NCBI GenBank assembly: GCA_963727455.1
Contig: CAVSGG010000009.1
Coordinates: forward strand, 448,001-512,000
DNA from: Candidatus Krumholzibacteriota bacterium
Lineage (GTDB): Bacteria; Krumholzibacteriota; Krumholzibacteriia; JAJRXK01
Reading direction: 5' to 3'
DNA: 64,000 nt
Both the position numbers and the translations under genes were made by a program. Under the pieces are notes generated by a model. The model did no database searches and had not been told where the DNA came from. It saw only the letters and a list, made by a program, of their open reading frames with translations. Position 1 is the first letter of the stretch. The number at the start of each line of letters is the position of its first letter. Positions 625 to 5,364 of this stretch are shown piece after piece.

Positions 625-1002
625 TCAGTGATTGCGCTGCTTTAAGAGCTTATCGATCGCGTCGAGGAGTTCTCGCGGCGCGAGTGGTTTGGAAAACGCG
701 AGGTCGGCGCCCAGAATCTTTGCGGGGCGCAGGTAACCCTCCGCACTGGCGCGACCCCCACCGGAGATCGCGATGATCTTCGCGTTCGGAAATTCTCTCC
801 TCAAATCCAGAATCGTCTCCAATCCATCTTGTTCTGGCATGATGATGTCGAGCACCACCAGGTCCGCAGGCTTTTCCCGGTAGGCAGCCACTGCAGCACG
901 GCCATCACCTGCTTCCACGACTAGGTGGCCATGAGACTCGAGCGTACGTTTGAATACCTCACGCACCTGTTGGTCGTCATCCACCACGAGAATGCGCGCC
1001 AT
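625..1002 (-). CDS. Single-domain response regulator (REC)
   Basis: MARILVVDDD, LDIIMPEQDG, ISGGG, SKP; start overlaps the end of the upstream kinase. Confidence 0.9.
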   Translation of the reverse strand: MARILVVDDDQQVREVFKRTLESHGHLVVEAGDGRAAVAAYREKPADLVVLDIIMPEQDGLETILDLRREFPNAKIIAISGGGRASAEGYLRPAKILGADLAFSKPLAPRELLDAIDKLLKQRNH

Positions 1003-2104
1003 GGAGTTCCTCCTCCCTGAGCGGAATCTGTATTTCGAATTCCGTCCCTTCTCCCAATGCGCTTCGGACTTGAATCGTGCCACCGTGCTGCTGAACAATG
1101 CCATAAACCGTCGCCAGGCCCAAGCCCGTACCGCCACCGATTCGCTTCGTCGTGAAAAATGGGTCGAAAATGTGCTCCTGGGTCACACGATCCATCCCGA
1201 TACCCTCATCCCTGACTCGCAGGAATGCGTGCCGTACGGGGCGAGTCGTGGTGGTCTCCTCTTCACTCTTCGCGATGATAGTCCCGGTACTGACTTCAAT
1301 GCGCCCGCCCTTGGGCATCGCGTCCTGAGCGTTCAAGGCCAAATTCAGAATGAGCTGTTGCAGCTGATTGGGGTCCGCGATCACCTCTGCCATTGCTTCA
1401 CCGGGAACGAAGTCGACACGCGTGTTCTCGCGCAGCACGCGTCGTAACAGACCCAGCGATTCTTCGACCACACGATTCAGCTGGATCTTCTCGAAGCTGT
1501 TGATCTGACTGCGGCCAAAGGCCATGAGACGACTCGTCAGTTCCGCGGCGGATTCGGTCGCCCTGCGAATCTTCTCCAGATCCGCGAATTCTTGGGAAGC
1601 GGGATCCAGCTCATCCTCGACGAAGTGAACGTGACCCAGGATGATCTGCAGGATGTTGTTGAAGTCGTGGGTGATTCCCTCGGCCATCTGCCCCAGCGCT
1701 TCCATTTTCTGGGCGTGATGGAGTTCGTTCTGCAGCTTGAGCTCCCGGCTCAAATCGAACTTTACCGCCGCGTAGTTGGTAATCCGGCCCGTTGCGTCCA
1801 TCACCGGCGAAATCGTGGCCTTCTCCTCGTAGAGCGTGCCGTCCTTCTTGCGGTTGATCATCCGTCCGCGCCAGACGTCCCCCTTGGAAATGGTGGCCCA
1901 CAGCGCCTCGTAGAAGGCGCTGGAATGCTGCCCGCTCTTGAGAATCCTGGTGCTCTGACCCAGGACTTCGGCACGCGTATAGCCGGTGATCGCCTCGAAG
2001 GCCGGGTTCACGTACTCGATGATTCCCGCCGGGTCCGTAATGACGACGGATTCGTCCAGGGCCTCGACGGCTGTCAGCATCTGATTGGAAGAAATCTCCG
2101 GCAT
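977..2104 (-). CDS. PAS-domain sensor histidine kinase
   Basis: PAS (ITDPAGIIEYVNPAF...W.GR..N), H-box THDFNN, N-box NLALNAQDAM, G boxes DEGIGM and GTGLGLA. Confidence 0.9.
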   Translation of the reverse strand: MPEISSNQMLTAVEALDESVVITDPAGIIEYVNPAFEAITGYTRAEVLGQSTRILKSGQHSSAFYEALWATISKGDVWRGRMINRKKDGTLYEEKATISPVMDATGRITNYAAVKFDLSRELKLQNELHHAQKMEALGQMAEGITHDFNNILQIILGHVHFVEDELDPASQEFADLEKIRRATESAAELTSRLMAFGRSQINSFEKIQLNRVVEESLGLLRRVLRENTRVDFVPGEAMAEVIADPNQLQQLILNLALNAQDAMPKGGRIEVSTGTIIAKSEEETTTTRPVRHAFLRVRDEGIGMDRVTQEHIFDPFFTTKRIGGGTGLGLATVYGIVQQHGGTIQVRSALGEGTEFEIQIPLREEELHGAHSRGG

Positions 2105-2220
2105 ACGACTCTTCTCAGGGGTGGGGGATTCTCAAGCGGACCGCAGCGGATTGATTCGTGCTGCCCACATCTTGTCCAACGAAGCCGCGCCAGGCAAGCG
2201 GGCGTTCGGTCCAGGGGCCC

Positions 2221-2258
2221 AACAAAAAAGCTCGGGGCAACCAAAGGATGCCCCGAGC
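2221..2258 (-). terminator. Intrinsic terminator
   Basis: Minus strand GCTCGGGGCA-tcctttggt-TGCCCCGAGC (10-bp stem) followed by TTTTTTGTT. Confidence 0.8.
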
Positions 2259-2450
2259 GGAGGAGACCTGAAGGGTGATGACAGGCCCGTAGTTTGCACC
2301 ACGCAGCGATGGCCCGCGCCCTATCCTCCCATCCCGCCGGTGGAAGAACTTCGAGGGGGAAAGCACGGTGGTCAGGTGGAACTCCAAGGCTTCCAGCACT
2401 CGAGAACACCCAGTGCTCCGTGCTCCCCCCTCAAGAATCGGCGGTTGTCC
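2221..2450 (-). ncRNA. Candidate structured sRNA or attenuator leader, family unassigned
   Basis: Bounded by a sigma54-type promoter and a terminator; several nested stems with G-U pairs on the minus strand and a GCAA tetraloop. Confidence 0.55.
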
Positions 2451-2458
2451 GTTTACAT

Positions 2459-2474
2459 TGCACAGCGGATGCCA
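2459..2474 (-). promoter_or_regulatory. Putative sigma54 (-24/-12) promoter
   Basis: TGGCATCCGCTGTGCA, GG-N10-GC spacing; adjacent to a bEBP gene. Confidence 0.6.
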
Positions 2475-2568
2475 TGGGGGACGGAGCATGAACACAATTG
2501 TAACTCGCTTGTTGGCAATATATTATGGAGACAGCCTGAGTGAGAAAAATGGCGCAGATGAAAAAAGG

Positions 2569-2602
2569 GCGATATTTCGCACGATCTCAGGTTGATATTT
2601 CG
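2569..2602. promoter_or_regulatory. Putative bEBP upstream activator sequences
   Basis: GATATTTCG at 2571 and 2594 (23 bp apart); the first lies within the near-palindrome GCGATATTTCGC; 120-150 bp upstream of the predicted sigma54 start. Confidence 0.4.
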
Positions 2603-2708
2603 TCTTTACCGCTGCGCTTGCCCGTTGTTTCCTGCGGAAGAAATCTCCACCCCACGACGGAGGCTCGGCCGGGCGGGCGGTCGATCCTGAGAACCACGGG
2701 AGGATGGC

Positions 2709-4391
2709 GTGAACACTCCAGCGGCTGAGCTGAATGCTCCCACCCCTGGGCCGGACGCGACCCTTGCGAGCCCTGAGCAAGAGCTCCAGCAACTCCTGGT
2801 GGAGACCGCACTGGAGTTCGTGGGGATGTCCGCCGAGGAAACGCCGCGTGGCATCGAATTCGCCCTGAAGAGGACTGCGCGCGCCCTGGGCTGTGACGCG
2901 GGATTCGTCTGCCTCTATCCCCCCGACAAGCAAAGGCTGGTGCTGCGCTATCTGTATCGCGGCGCGAATGTGCCGATCCGGAGATCTTTGCAGCGCGACC
3001 TCAAGTCCAGGTGGTTTCCCTGGGGGATGCAGCTCCACAGTAGTTTGAAGCCGGTCGTCGTGGATGACACACGCCGCATGCCCAAGGAGGCGACAGTCGA
3101 CCGGCGACTCATCGAGACCCTGGGTCTGGTTTCGTTCGTGGCCATTCCCATGTCCGTGGAAGGCGAGCTGATCGGCTCTTTGGGATTCGGCAGCTCCCAG
3201 GCCGACCACGACTGGCTCGAGCTGGAGATCGAGCTTCTGGGCAAGTTGGGCCGGCTGATCACCGGCGCACTTCAGCAACAGCAGGCCGTCGAAGCGCTGA
3301 AAGAGAGCGAGGGGCGGTTTCGCACCGTGGCCTCCTACGCGGCCGAGCTGGTTTTCGATGCCGATCTGGAAGCCCTGGAGGAACTCGCCGTGATGCGCAA
3401 CCGCCATCGAGTCGAGTCCCTCTACGAGCGCGAACAGGAGTCTCACGCGCGCGCCACCCAGGAGCTCGTGGGAGAGAGTCAGGTTCTCACCGCCATCCAT
3501 CATCACATTTCGCGGGTCGCCCCCACCCATTCCACCGTCCTCATCCTGGGCGAGACCGGGACCGGTAAGGAACTCGTGGCGCGCGCGGTGCATCGCGCCA
3601 GTTTACGAGCGGACCGGATCATGGTGAAAGTCGATTGCGGCGCGCTCCCGCCGACCTTGATCGAGAGTGAACTGTTTGGACACGAAAAGGGCTCCTTTAC
3701 CGGCGCGATCCAACGCAAGCTGGGACTCTTCGAACTCGCCGACGGCGGGACCATCTTCCTCGACGAGATCGGCGATCTCCCCATCGAGCTGCAGGCAAAG
3801 TTACTACGAGTGCTTCAGGAGGGTGAGTTCGTGAGGATCGGCTCCACAAATCTGCAGCGAGTCGACGTGCGAGTCATCGCGGCTACCAACCGTCCCCTGG
3901 ACGAGGCGATGAGGGCGGGGGAGTTTCGGCCCGATCTGTTCTACCGTTTGAGTGTCTTTCCCATCGAGATCCCCCCTCTGCGCAATCGCCAGGAGGACAT
4001 CCCGGTCCTGGTGCACCATTTCCTGAAGAAGACCTCGCGCAAGCTCTCGCGGGATGTGTTGAAGGTACCGCGGGAGCTCATGGAGTCCTTCATCGCCTAT
4101 GACTGGCCGGGGAACGTGCGGGAACTCGAGAACCTGATCGAGTGCGCGGCAGTGTTTTCCTCGGGAAACACACTTTCTCTGCCTTACGCTCTCATCTCCC
4201 GCTTGGGCGCCGCAAGCGGGAACGCATCCATCGAGAGTCTTCAGGACATGGAGCGCAAGCACATCGCGGGGGTGCTTCATGCATGCAATTGGCGCGTGAA
4301 GGGTAAGGGAAACGCGGCCGAGCGCCTGCAGCTCAACCCCAGTACTCTCTATTCGCGCATGCGGAAGCTGGGATTGAAGCGACCCCGCTGA
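2709..4391 (+). CDS. GAF-containing sigma54-dependent transcriptional activator (FhlA/NifA-like bEBP)
   Basis: GETGTGKE Walker [31 protein letters not shown]-terminal Fis-type HTH. Confidence 0.92.
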
Positions 4392-4436: not shown

Positions 4437-5225
4437 CTAAAGCAAGACGCCGAGTCGGGATTTCAGTTTCCGCAGCGCCTGTGCGTGCAATTGCGAGACG
4501 CGGCTTTCGCTCAAATGTAGCATCTGTCCAATTTCTCTCAGCTTCTGACCCTCGAAGTAATGAAGCCGCAGCACGGTCTCTTCCTTGGGTGAAAGCGAAG
4601 GAAGTGCCTGTTCGAGAGCCTCCCACAGGCTCTTACGCTCCATCTCAGCTTGACCGTCGATGGGACTGAGTTTGGCCAAGTCCTTCAGGCTCTGCTCCTT
4701 TTGACTCTCAACCTCACCGCTCTGCATGAGATCGATGAGTGTGGCGATCTCGGTGACGCGCCAGTACTCTCCGAGTCCCATCTTCAGCTCCTCGGCGACC
4801 TCTTCCTCTCGAACTGGCCTGCCCCGTTCTTGCTCGAGTCGACGAGTGGCACGTGTGATTTCCGAGAGAGTCCTGCGGACCGAGCGCGGCACCCAGTCCA
4901 TCTTGCGCAGTTCGTCCCGAATCGCGCCCTGAATCCGGATGCGCGCATAGGACTCGAAGTGGAGGCTTTTTGTGGGATCGTATTTCGCGGCCGCGCTCAG
5001 CAAGCCCAACCAGGCCGCGCTCATCAGGTCGGAGGTTTCGATGTTGGCCGGCAGACACCAGGCGACTTTTCGAACTACGCGGCTGACGAGAGAGGAGTAC
5101 TCGCCAACTAGGGCCTCGCGCCAATCGCCGCCAGAGCTATGGCGCGGATCCTCCTGTTCGAACGAGCCGGTCGGTGTCCGCGGAAGATTTGGTTTCGTCA
5201 AGACTGCCAAGGTTCTTGCACACAT
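4437..5225 (-). CDS. fliA: FliA/WhiG-family (sigma28-type) RNA polymerase sigma factor; start uncertain
   Basis: DLMSAAWLGL, FESYARIRIQGAIRDELRKMDWVPRSVR, region 4 LREIGQMLHLSESRVSQLH. Confidence 0.85.
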   Translation of the reverse strand: MCARTLAVLTKPNLPRTPTGSFEQEDPRHSSGGDWREALVGEYSSLVSRVVRKVAWCLPANIETSDLMSAAWLGLLSAAAKYDPTKSLHFESYARIRIQGAIRDELRKMDWVPRSVRRTLSEITRATRRLEQERGRPVREEEVAEELKMGLGEYWRVTEIATLIDLMQSGEVESQKEQSLKDLAKLSPIDGQAEMERKSLWEALEQALPSLSPKEETVLRLHYFEGQKLREIGQMLHLSESRVSQLHAQALRKLKSRLGVLL

Positions 5226-5258
5226 CCCTCTGGCCAGGGAAAACTTCGAGCAAGAACA

Positions 5259-5274
5259 TGCAATCTCGGTGCCA
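5259..5274 (-). promoter_or_regulatory. sigma54 promoter of the FliA-like gene
   Basis: TGGCACCGAGATTGCA matches the TGGCAC-N5-TTGCA consensus exactly. Confidence 0.8.
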
Positions 5275-5364
5275 CGCACGGGCGGGGCACAATCCGTAGA
5301 TTTGGGCGGATTCGTGGCGATTTGACGGCATTTGTCCAGGACCGATGCTAAAGGGAAGAGGAGA

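What the first reader, a model, noticed from the sequence alone, without database searches (positions are those of the whole stretch)
2221..2474. Candidate sigma54-dependent ~225-nt structured RNA with its own terminator
Seen on the minus strand: a GG-N10-GC promoter (2474-2459, start near 2448) followed by domain 1 (CCGCCG 2444-2439 / CGGCGG 2339-2334 closing a ~15-bp stem 2432-2418 / 2368-2353 with two inner hairpins), domain 2 (GCGGGCC/GGCCUGU and CGUGGU-GCAA-ACUACG, a GNRA loop), then a 10-bp terminator with U6 about 120 nt before the PAS kinase. The G-U pairs work only on the minus strand, there is no credible ORF, and GGA motifs are frequent. Inference: either a trans-acting sRNA driven by the neighbouring bEBP (as with sigma54-dependent Qrr or CrcZ) or an attenuating leader controlling the kinase/regulator operon. 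I could not match it to a known family.
Basis: partly seen in the sequence, partly recalled or inferred. Interest (0 to 1): 0.78.

Follow-up and report, generated by a model that had tools for sequence, protein, structure and literature searches.

The report
Sigma54-driven structured small RNA candidate
A conserved, folded, non-coding RNA gene of about 225 bases sits between a sigma-54 activator gene and a sensor kinase operon in an uncultured bacterium, and it looks like a new example of a known type of regulatory unit rather than a new kind of system.

Summary
On the minus strand there is a sigma54-type promoter (2474-2459), about 225 nt with no conserved ORF, and a strong intrinsic terminator (stem 2258-2230, U6 2229-2224). 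The fold beats shuffles (z -3.5) and no Rfam family matches.

The element occurs in 3 of 10 genomes of its family and 3 of 151 sampled from its phylum. These are the same three genomes that carry the neighbouring GAF-type sigma54 activator (bEBP), the PAS kinase and a FliA-like sigma factor.

Between two species, the block 2166-2453 differs at 1 of 288 bases, while the flanking genes differ at 9-17%. Against the third species (about 79% identity), conservation stops at the terminator. Five base pairs change on both sides and stay paired, and a 2-nt indel breaks every reading frame.

Best reading (0.55): a discrete small RNA activated by the divergently encoded bEBP through a doubled upstream repeat that is unique in the genome. 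The closest architecture is glmY-qseE/QseF. Neither CsrA nor Hfq was found, GGA is not enriched, and no target emerged. A cis-acting leader of the kinase/receiver operon remains possible (0.22).

Main limits: expression is untested, and the comparison rests on only two independent sequence types.

The parts
2571..2602 (-). Candidate upstream activating sequence. Two direct copies of CGAAATATC (2602-2594 and 2579-2571), 23 nt apart, lie about 105-130 nt upstream of the -24 element.
   Evidence: This is an island of conservation in otherwise unalignable intergenic DNA: 27/31 and 23/30 identical to G001 in bins 2609-2580 and 2579-2550 (alignment). It is the only place in the 3.46-Mb genome where two copies lie within 30 nt, out of 13 single copies genome-wide. 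That the bEBP binds here is inferred, not shown.
2459..2474 (-). Sigma54-type promoter TGGCATccgctGTGCA. GG is at -24 and GC at -12, so the predicted start is near 2448.
   Evidence: Pattern match: 2 sites in the window against 0.10 expected. The -24 and -12 elements are identical in G003 and G001 while the spacer and flanks vary. rpoN is present in the genome. Genome-wide, 13 of 14 strict matches lie outside long same-strand frames.
2334..2444 (-). RNA domain 1, a long irregular hairpin. It comprises P1 (2444-2439/2339-2334), a 15-bp P2 (2432-2418/2368-2353), inner helices and an apical GCU-GGA-AGC hairpin.
   Evidence: The MFE and centroid folds agree. G001 folds on its own into the same architecture. 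Three pairs changed on both sides and stayed paired.
2341..2352 (-). Invariant unpaired stretch GAAGUUCUUCCA in the internal loop between P2 and P1.
   Evidence: Identical in all three species. Unpaired probability is high in both G000 and G001. Its role as a seed or contact surface is inferred.
2272..2322 (-). RNA domain 2. P4 (2317-2311/2287-2281), an invariant 7-nt bulge AUCGCUG (2310-2304), P5 (2303-2298/2293-2288) and a GCAA loop (2297-2294).
   Evidence: Independent MFE folds of G000 and G001 give the same architecture. Two P4 pairs changed on both sides: C-G to A-U and G.U to C-G. The full-length MFE of G000 prefers an alternative pairing of the P4 3' strand, so this domain is less certain than domain 1.
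2259..2275 (-). Invariant C/U-rich linker CCCUUCAGGUCUCCUCC directly 5' of the terminator. It contains an anti-Shine-Dalgarno-like UCCUCC.
   Evidence: It lies within a run of about 30 invariant columns across the three species. G000 and G001 would read it in different frames because of a 2-nt indel just upstream, so the conservation is not due to coding. Its role is inferred.
2224..2258 (-). Intrinsic terminator: stem GCUCGGGGCA/UGCCCCGAGC followed by U6.
   Evidence: -24.2 kcal/mol in G000. G001 has a 12-bp version with a different loop, -23.8 kcal/mol, also followed by U6. Conservation with G001 drops to background right after it.
2166..2220 (-). Post-terminator block that is invariant between G000 and G003 only. 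It contains a weak candidate sigma70-like promoter for the kinase operon: TTGCCT 2197-2192, 17-nt spacer, CAAGAT 2174-2169.
   Evidence: There are 0 differences here against 15 in the next 61 nt. It is not conserved in G001. The promoter scan did not flag the promoter reading; it is my inference from the sequence.
2709..4391 (+). Divergent sigma54 activator (bEBP) with GAF, AAA+ and Fis-type HTH domains.
   Evidence: Pfam Sigma54_activat 6.8e-69, plus GAF and HTH_8. It has Walker A GETGTGK, a GSFTGA loop, DEI and RPDLFYRL. Full-length orthologues occur only in the three genomes that carry the RNA.
977..2104 (-). PAS-HisKA-HATPase histidine kinase downstream of the RNA.
   Evidence: Pfam. The PAS domain resembles NifL PAS1 but scores below the family cut-off. 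Orthologues of 74% identity or more occur only in G003 and G001.
625..1002 (-). Single-domain response-regulator receiver. Its start overlaps the kinase stop, so the two form an operon with the kinase.
   Evidence: Pfam Response_reg 1.1e-22 on ORF 625-1137. The likely start, MARILVVDD, is at about 1002.
5259..5274 (-). Second sigma54-type promoter of the module, TGGCACcgagaTTGCA, in front of a FliA/WhiG-family sigma factor (ORF 4437-5279).
   Evidence: Pattern match and NCBIfam FliA_WhiG at 206 bits against a 189.6 cut-off. This sigma factor occurs next to the bEBP only in G001 and G003 among the four congeners searched.

Best explanation
The region 2448-2224 (minus strand) is a gene for a discrete, structured, non-coding RNA of about 225 nt. 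RNA polymerase with sigma54 binds the -24/-12 promoter at 2474-2459. The divergently encoded GAF-domain bEBP (2709-4391) binds the doubled CGAAATATC repeat about 105-130 nt upstream. When its GAF domain receives an unknown signal, the bEBP opens the promoter. Most transcripts stop at the strong terminator, releasing a two-domain RNA. This RNA then acts in trans as an output of the bEBP, together with a FliA-like sigma factor that has its own sigma54 promoter in the same module.

I favour action through the invariant unpaired stretches: GAAGUUCUUCCA, the AUCGCUG bulge and the C/U-rich anti-SD-like linker. These could contact mRNA ribosome-binding regions or a protein partner. The action would not depend on Hfq or CsrA.

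Some read-through into the kinase/receiver operon is possible, as in glmY-qseE.

Shown here: the sequence features, conservation, compensatory changes, absence of a conserved ORF, and co-occurrence with the module. Inferred: transcription, bEBP binding at the repeats, release as a separate RNA, and the mode of action.
For: Promoter
- It matches TGGCAY-N5-KTGCW, with 2 sites in the window against 0.10 expected.
- The -24/-12 elements are invariant in all three species while the spacer and flanks vary.
- rpoN is present, and the bEBP is complete, with a GSFTGA loop and Walker motifs.

Upstream repeat
- The doubled repeat is a conserved island and is unique in the genome.

Conservation
- G000 against G003: 1 difference in 288 nt (2166-2453), compared with 98/1128 in the kinase, 104/607 in the bEBP 5' part, and 15/61 and 55/255 in the flanking intergenic DNA.
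- A metagenome contig (L134) and a laid contig from run X3 show the same pattern.
- G000 against G001: conservation covers the promoter and the RNA and falls to background straight after the U-tract.

Structure
- z -3.5 in G000 and -4.8 in G001.
- The two species fold independently into the same architecture.
- 3 double compensatory pairs in domain 1 and 2 in P4.
- No helix apart from the terminator, which MAFFT misaligns, has a pair that changed on both sides and lost pairing.

Not coding
- The only shared frame is broken by a 2-nt indel, and the invariant 3' part is read in different frames in the two species.

Terminator
- -24 kcal/mol plus U6 in both species, although the loop is rebuilt in G001.

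Co-occurrence
- RNA found in 3 of 10 family genomes and 3 of 151 phylum genomes.
- Full-length bEBP, kinase and FliA-like orthologues occur only in those same genomes.

Supporting context
- A second ORF-less sigma54 unit in the same genome is conserved in 5 of 5 congeners, so such RNAs are plausible in this genus.
Against: - There are no expression data. No RNA run holds the locus, so the start, the end and even transcription are unproven.
- Only two independent sequence types exist. G000, G003, L131 and L134 are nearly identical in the RNA. The covariation therefore rests on one lineage comparison, and in the shuffle control 11 of 500 shuffles reached the observed score.
- The near-identity between G000 and G003 could be a recombination tract rather than constraint. 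The RNA is about 20% diverged from G001, about as much as the coding flanks.
- No trans target was found. The best genome-wide complementarities all lie inside long ORFs. Pairing with the 5' regions of the four neighbouring genes is no better than shuffles, with a best z of -2.6 among 20 tests.
- The RNA is far more structured than typical base-pairing sRNAs.
- The invariant block in G000/G003 runs 55 nt past the terminator.
- The genome-wide count of strict promoter matches (14) is no higher than in mononucleotide shuffles (13-18). Only their location supports them as promoters.
Confidence: 0.55

Rival explanations
1. The RNA is a cis-acting leader. It is the 5' untranslated region of the kinase/receiver operon, and its terminator is a regulated attenuator controlled by a riboswitch-like aptamer or a protein. 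The sigma54 promoter's real job would then be to express the two-component genes.
For: - Same strand and fixed order of RNA then kinase in all three species, with a similar 116-120 nt gap.
- A highly structured two-domain fold with an invariant bulge, a GNRA-type loop and an alternative pairing for the P4 3' strand. This is more like an aptamer than a typical sRNA.
- The block invariant between G000 and G003 continues past the terminator.
- No strong separate kinase promoter was flagged.
- Precedent: glmY and qseE-qseG-qseF are described as one operon in Proteus (PMC8745638; I saw only the start of the abstract).
Against: - I found no antiterminator. In the folds of both species nothing competes with the terminator stem; the alternative helices stack on it.
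- The 116-nt spacer to the start codon is at background conservation against G001.
- No known riboswitch or leader family matches.
- The receiver encoded downstream has no RNA-binding domain.
- A weak promoter-like pair of hexamers lies inside the post-terminator block (my reading of the sequence).
Confidence: 0.22
2. The conservation reflects DNA-level events or function rather than a functional RNA. It could be a recent recombination tract shared by two lineages, or regulatory DNA for the two flanking operons. The predicted fold would then be a by-product of GC-rich sequence.
For: - Both strands fold better than shuffles.
- There is rate heterogeneity: 0.35% divergence to G003 but about 20% to G001.
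- The invariant block does not end at the terminator.
Against: - The block begins at the predicted start site, and the -24/-12 elements are conserved separately from the block.
- Against the distant species, conservation ends exactly at the terminator.
- Five pairs changed on both sides and kept pairing.
- The terminator was rebuilt in G001 and kept its strength and its U-tract.
Confidence: 0.1
3. The region encodes a small protein. Candidates are the frame starting at the GTG within GAGUGCUGGAAGCC, or the frame after the GGGAGGA motif.
For: G000 and G001 share a stretch in one frame, VLEALEFH..SPSKFFHR..PSLRGAN.
Against: - A 2-nt indel shifts the frame, so the invariant 3' half is read differently in the two species.
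- There is no Shine-Dalgarno sequence before the shared GTG.
- Amino-acid changes are frequent exactly where the RNA stems covary.
- The frame would run through the terminator.
- The two longest overlapping ORFs, one on each strand, have no Pfam hit.
Confidence: 0.03

Closest known systems
glmY with qseE/glrK and qseF/glrR (Enterobacteriaceae)
   Same: - An sRNA gene with a sigma54 promoter and upstream activator sites lies directly upstream of, and on the same strand as, a histidine kinase gene.
- The cognate bEBP is encoded in the same locus.
- That bEBP also drives an alternative sigma factor gene from a second sigma54 promoter: QseF activates glmY and rpoE (PMC6075780, start of abstract).
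- glmY-qseE-qseG-qseF is reported as one operon in Proteus (PMC8745638, start of abstract).
- Here the equivalents are RNA then kinase then receiver, a bEBP alongside, and a FliA-like sigma factor with a sigma54-type promoter.
   Different: - No sequence or structure match to any Rfam family, which would include any GlmY/GlmZ models the library holds.
- The bEBP here senses through a GAF domain, not a receiver domain, and is divergent rather than downstream. The kinase is therefore not its obvious partner.
- The RNA is longer and has two structured domains.
- The mode of action of GlmY as a decoy for RapZ (abstract starts) was not tested here.
CrcZ/CrcY with CbrB (Pseudomonas)
   Same: A bEBP directly activates sigma54 promoters of regulatory RNAs through several non-palindromic subsites (PMC6296734, passages read). 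Here the upstream site is a direct, non-palindromic repeat.
   Different: - CrcZ works by sequestering Crc, with Hfq involved (PMC6296734).
- No Hfq was found in 3 of 3 carrier genomes.
- There is no Rfam match.
Qrr sRNAs with LuxO (Vibrio)
   Same: Sigma54- and bEBP-dependent sRNAs. I recall qrr1 lying next to and divergent from luxO; no call checked this.
   Different: - I recall Qrr as about 100 nt and Hfq-dependent, with a conserved unstructured seed.
- This RNA is about 225 nt and highly structured.
- No Hfq gene was found and there is no Rfam match.
CsrB/RsmY/RsmZ-type CsrA sponges
   Same: A structured sRNA with a GGA in the loop of its apical hairpin. This GGA is conserved in G001.
   Different: - GGA is not enriched.
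- Only 2 GGA positions are shared between G000 (7) and G001 (4).
- No CsrA was found in 3 of 3 carrier genomes.

Membership tests
Sigma54-dependent promoter | GG at -24 and GC at -12 with the TGGCAC-N5-TTGCW consensus (consensus recalled from memory) | tested here: met
   TGGCATccgctGTGCA at 2474-2459. There are 2 window matches to TGGCAY-N5-KTGCW against 0.10 expected. The elements are invariant in G003 and G001.
Sigma54-dependent promoter | The organism has rpoN and a competent bEBP | tested here: met
   Sigma54_DBD scores 217.8 bits in G000. The neighbouring bEBP has a full AAA+ domain with GETGTGK, GSFTGA and DEI.
Sigma54-dependent promoter | Transcription starts about 12 nt after the GC and depends on rpoN and the bEBP | not testable with these tools
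   No RNA run holds the locus and the organism is uncultured.
Independent sRNA gene | Own intrinsic terminator and no conserved ORF | tested here: met
   Terminator of -24.2 and -23.8 kcal/mol plus U6 in two species. The reading frames are broken by a 2-nt indel.
Independent sRNA gene | A discrete transcript of the predicted size | not testable with these tools
   No RNA holder is listed.
Any Rfam family (including any 6S, Qrr, CrcZ, GlmY/GlmZ, CsrB/Rsm, Pxr and riboswitch models it holds) | A covariance-model match at the gathering score | tested here: not met
   No match at gathering score in the whole window. At E up to 10 in 2050-2760, only two snoRNA chance hits appear. The genome's 6S RNA lies elsewhere, on contig C5.
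CsrA-sequestering sRNA | Many GGA motifs in loops, and a CsrA gene in the genome | tested here: not met
   GGA: 7 observed against 5.2 in shuffles, with 209 of 1000 shuffles reaching 7; only 2 positions are conserved. CsrA (PF02599) was not found in G000, G001 or G003. These genomes are 89-96% complete.
Hfq-dependent base-pairing sRNA (Qrr type) | Hfq present and an accessible conserved seed with mRNA targets | tested here: not met
   Hfq (PF17209) was not found in the 3 carrier genomes. Conserved unpaired stretches exist, but no complementarity at a translation start was found.
Terminator-type riboswitch or attenuator | A mutually exclusive antiterminator and close coupling to the downstream ORF | tested here: inconclusive
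   No pairing competes with the terminator in the MFE or centroid folds of either species. The ORF starts 119 nt downstream, across a spacer not conserved in G001. Alternative pairings do exist within domain 2.

The most novel reading that the evidence does not exclude
This is a new class of structured RNA made only on command of a GAF-sensor sigma54 activator. It would work not by simple base pairing but as a ligand- or protein-binding RNA, using its invariant bulge, GNRA loop and internal loop. It would be the main output of a self-contained signalling module (bEBP, RNA, PAS kinase, receiver and sigma28-like factor) in an uncultured candidate phylum that lacks Hfq and CsrA. Together with the second sigma54-driven hairpin RNA in the same genus, it would point to a sigma54-centred riboregulation layer in this lineage.
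Probability: 0.15. Interest if true: 0.7.

Novelty: new member of a known kind. Interest (0 to 1): 0.5.

Why it matters
Sigma54-dependent small RNAs encoded beside their activators are key signalling outputs in Proteobacteria; Qrr, CrcZ and GlmY are the examples I have in mind.

None of the 15 papers listed of the 68 that mention Krumholzibacteriota concerns an RNA regulator, judging by titles and abstract starts. The only named record that carries this RNA (L058) belongs to that candidate phylum. A search for sigma54-dependent small RNAs listed only work on Proteobacteria and Borrelia among its 20 rows.

If the RNA is expressed, it gives a compact and experimentally tractable module. The promoter, the activator and the doubled repeat can all be moved into a reporter host. 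That would allow study of how a one-component GAF sensor converts a signal into an RNA output in an organism without Hfq or CsrA.

Its narrow distribution (three species) and the lack of expression data limit its present weight.

Tried and rejected
**Homologue searches beyond the genus**
- BLAST of the intergenic region in 41 relatives found it in 3 genomes.
- The covariance model R1 found it in 3 of 10 family genomes and 3 of 151 phylum genomes. There was also one weak hit in G000 contig C18 (E 0.017, 24 bits), which I did not follow up.
- The genome contigs pattern scan was swamped by chance matches. R1 confirmed 1 of the 119, L058.
- The metagenome scan with a 19-mer gave 8 loci. Two are real (L131, L134) and both are near-identical to known types; the other 6 are chance matches.

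**Expression**
- No RNA holder is listed.
- Laid DNA contigs from 4 runs added no new sequence type.

**Partner proteins and GGA**
- CsrA and Hfq were not found in G000, G001 or G003.
- GGA enrichment was rejected.

**Target prediction**
- The 45 best of 2898 seeded duplexes were listed. None was convincing, and the three I examined all lie inside long ORFs.
- Pairing with the 5' regions of the bEBP, kinase, receiver and FliA-like genes is no better than shuffles.

**Other checks**
- The upstream repeat was not found near the second sigma54 promoter, allowing up to 1 mismatch.
- The 6S RNA reading was rejected.
- The small-protein reading was rejected.
- The simple promoter/terminator scan listed neither the terminator nor a kinase promoter.
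- Literature: for I saw only listings and abstract starts. For PMC6296734 I read passages. Supplements were not consulted.
Full report
**What is there**

Window 2105-2708 is a 604-nt intergenic region.
- On the plus strand to its right is a sigma54 activator (bEBP; 2709-4391, 560 aa) with GAF, AAA+ and Fis-type HTH domains. It has Walker A GETGTGK, a GSFTGA loop, Walker B DEI and RPDLFYRL.
- On the minus strand to its left is a PAS-HisKA-HATPase histidine kinase (2104-977, 375 aa).
- A single-domain receiver follows the kinase (ORF 1137-625, Response_reg 1.1e-22). Its likely start at about 1002 overlaps the kinase stop.

The bEBP, however, has no receiver domain, so this kinase is not its obvious partner.

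**Check of the observation**

- The promoter TGGCATccgctGTGCA (2474-2459) matches TGGCAY-N5-KTGCW. The window holds 2 such sites against 0.10 expected, and 0 of 100 shuffles reached 2.
- The genome has rpoN and 17 matches at E <= 1e-60 to this bEBP, itself included.
- Genome-wide there are 14 strict matches, no more than in mononucleotide shuffles (13-18). However, 13 of the 14 lie outside long same-strand frames and most sit just upstream of an ORF.
- The 228-nt RNA folds at -107.4 kcal/mol, z -3.51, with 1 of 200 shuffles as good.
- The complementary strand folds nearly as well (z -4.11). G-U pairs are 8 against 6. The strand is therefore set by the promoter and by the terminator, which has its U6 only on the minus strand.
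- The terminator (G2258-A2249 / U2239-C2230, then U6 at 2229-2224) is worth -24.2 kcal/mol.
- GGA is not enriched: 7 against 5.2 +/- 1.6, with 209 of 1000 shuffles reaching 7.
- No Rfam family matches, either at gathering score in the whole window or at E up to 10 in 2050-2760, where only two snoRNA chance hits appear.

**Relatives**

The lineage is probably the candidate phylum Krumholzibacteriota. That is the title of L058, the only named record that carries the RNA.
- BLAST and a covariance model (R1) find the element in G000, G003 and G001. That is 3 of 10 genomes of the family, 3 of 41 relatives and 3 of 151 sampled from the phylum.
- Two of the 5 species of the genus (G002, G004) lack it.
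- Two metagenome contigs carry it. L131 is 99.9% identical to G000, and L134 is G003-like.
- Laid DNA contigs from four runs added no new type.

In effect there are only two independent sequence types.

**The module travels together**
- Full-length orthologues of the bEBP (88% and 81% amino-acid identity) and of the kinase (93% and 74%) occur only in G003 and G001 among 10 family genomes. Every other hit covers only shared domains.
- The GAF part of the bEBP has no orthologue in the other 205 of 208 phylum genomes; the next best hit is 28% identical.
- The adjacent FliA/WhiG-family sigma factor (4437-5279) is likewise found only in G001 and G003 among the four congeners searched, again next to the bEBP.
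- This sigma factor has the window's other sigma54-type promoter directly upstream (5274-5259).

The unit is therefore: receiver, kinase and RNA transcribed leftwards from one sigma54 promoter region; the bEBP rightwards; and the sigma28-like factor leftwards from a second sigma54 promoter.

**Conservation**

G000 and G003 differ at 443 of 3604 aligned bases.

| Segment | Differences |
|---|---|
| Block 2166-2453 | 1 of 288 (position 2370) |
| Kinase | 98 of 1128 |
| 5' part of the bEBP | 104 of 607 |
| Intergenic flank 2105-2165 | 15 of 61 |
| Intergenic flank 2454-2708 | 55 of 255 |

(Segment counts.)

- Differences resume at 2454 and 2475 onwards. The -24 and -12 elements are untouched.
- Against G001 (about 79% identity over the RNA) the intergenic region is unalignable except for two islands. 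One is the doubled repeat at 2609-2550. The other is promoter plus RNA at 2489-2220. Identity falls to background immediately after the U-tract.
- Two points remain unexplained. The G000/G003 invariant block runs 55 nt past the terminator. And the RNA is almost invariant to G003 yet about as diverged from G001 as the coding flanks are. A recombination tract, or a burst of compensated change in the G001 line, would each explain the second point.

**Structure**

G001 folds on its own (z -4.76) into the same domain 1: P1, the long P2, inner helices and the apical GCU-GGA-AGC hairpin.
- On the three-sequence alignment, 3 pairs of domain 1 changed on both sides and stayed paired. 95.8% of cells pair, against 41-54% when the partners are slid. 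11 of 500 shuffles reached the observed covariation.
- For domain 2, RNAalifold chose another pairing.
- In P4, C-G became A-U and G.U became C-G.
- The terminator of G001 has a different loop and register but the same strength and U-tract.
- Five of five doubly changed pairs outside the terminator kept pairing. By my own rough estimate, about 4/9 chance each, this is about 2% by chance. That is suggestive, not conclusive.

**Not coding**

G000 and G001 share one frame for about 40 codons, but a 2-nt indel then shifts it. The invariant CCCUUCAGGUCUCCUCC and the terminator are read in different frames in the two species. There is no SD before the shared GTG.

**How it most likely works**

- The doubled CGAAATATC repeat (2602-2594 and 2579-2571) lies 105-130 nt upstream of -24, is conserved, and is the only such pair in the genome. 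I take it as the bEBP's binding site. This is an inference.
- The bEBP would then have a dedicated RNA target, and possibly also the sigma28-like gene. The repeat is not found there.
- The strong terminator, the loss of conservation after it in G001, and a weak promoter-like pair of hexamers in the spacer (my reading; not flagged) favour a discrete RNA of about 225 nt.
- What it does is open. CsrA and Hfq were not found in any of the three carriers.
- The best genome-wide complementarities of the invariant unpaired stretches all lie inside long ORFs. Pairing with the four neighbouring genes' 5' regions is no better than shuffles.
- The invariant bulge, internal loop and GNRA-type loop would suit a protein or ligand partner as well as base pairing.

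**Comparison with known systems**

The closest architecture is glmY-qseE(glrK)/qseF(glrR).
- That system has a sigma54-dependent sRNA gene directly upstream of a kinase gene.
- Its bEBP also activates an alternative sigma factor (rpoE) from a sigma54 promoter.
- In Proteus, the sRNA and kinase genes are co-transcribed (PMC6075780 and PMC8745638; I saw abstract starts only).

This precedent also shows that 'sRNA' and 'leader of the kinase operon' need not exclude each other.

CbrB-CrcZ shares non-palindromic activator subsites (PMC6296734, passages). The Qrr/LuxO comparison rests on my recall. The RNA itself belongs to none of these families and is not 6S, which lies on contig C5.

**Side finding**

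The same genome has a second ORF-less sigma54 unit at G000:C8:39046-39210.
- It consists of TGGCATccgggTTGCT, one long hairpin of about 125 nt (z -5.27) and U7.
- It is conserved with its -24/-12 elements in 5 of 5 congeners, with compensatory stem changes in G002 and G004.
- It has no Rfam match.

It makes sigma54-driven small RNAs more plausible in this genus.

**Verdict**

This is a real, conserved, structured non-coding element with a credible sigma54 promoter and its own terminator. It is part of a module restricted to three species.
- Discrete bEBP-controlled sRNA: 0.55.
- Cis-acting leader: 0.22.
- DNA-level or recombination artefact: 0.10.
- Small protein: 0.03.

It is a new RNA family but a new member of a known kind of circuit.

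Noticed in passing
window 4437-5279 (-) and 5259-5274 (-): A FliA/WhiG-family sigma factor has a sigma54-type promoter (TGGCACcgagaTTGCA) directly upstream. The listed GTG start at 5279 lies upstream of the promoter, so the true start must be further in. The gene occurs next to the bEBP only in G001 and G003 among four congeners searched, so a sigma54 to sigma28-like cascade belongs to the same module.
   Followed up: partly
G000:C8:39046-39210 (+), which is L174:5047-5211 (outside the window): A second ORF-less sigma54 unit: TGGCATccgggTTGCT, one long hairpin of about 125 nt (z -5.27) and U7. It is conserved, with its -24/-12 elements, in 5 of 5 species of the genus, with compensatory stem changes in G002 and G004. 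A core of about 25-27 nt also matches in two other genera. It has no Rfam match. Its neighbours are an SDR, a formyltransferase and Lnt, with no bEBP adjacent.
   Followed up: partly
window 2166-2453 compared with G003 and G001: Rate heterogeneity. There is 1 difference in 288 nt to G003, but about 20% divergence to G001, as much as in the coding flanks. The invariant block also extends 55 nt past the terminator. This may be a recombination tract or lineage-specific co-evolution.
   Followed up: partly
window 977-2104 (-) and 2709-4391 (+): The kinase's PAS domain is most like PAS1 of NifL (152.6 bits, below the cut-off of 242.45). The bEBP's best NCBIfam hit is NifA (366 bits, below the cut-off of 528.85). 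This is an adjacent NifL-like/NifA-like pair, but with a complete kinase and a separate receiver.
   Followed up: no
window 2498-2526 (+): A sigma70-like promoter match, TTGTAA-17-TATTAT, points towards the bEBP gene. It lies between the RNA's promoter and the doubled repeat. The bEBP transcript would therefore cross its own putative binding sites, which makes autoregulation possible.
   Followed up: no
G000:C5:583654-583833 (+) (outside the window): The genome's 6S RNA (RF00013, 60.2 bits, above the gathering score).
   Followed up: no
G000:C18:2245-2312 (+) (outside the window): A weak match to model R1 (24.3 bits, E 0.017). It is probably just a hairpin.
   Followed up: no
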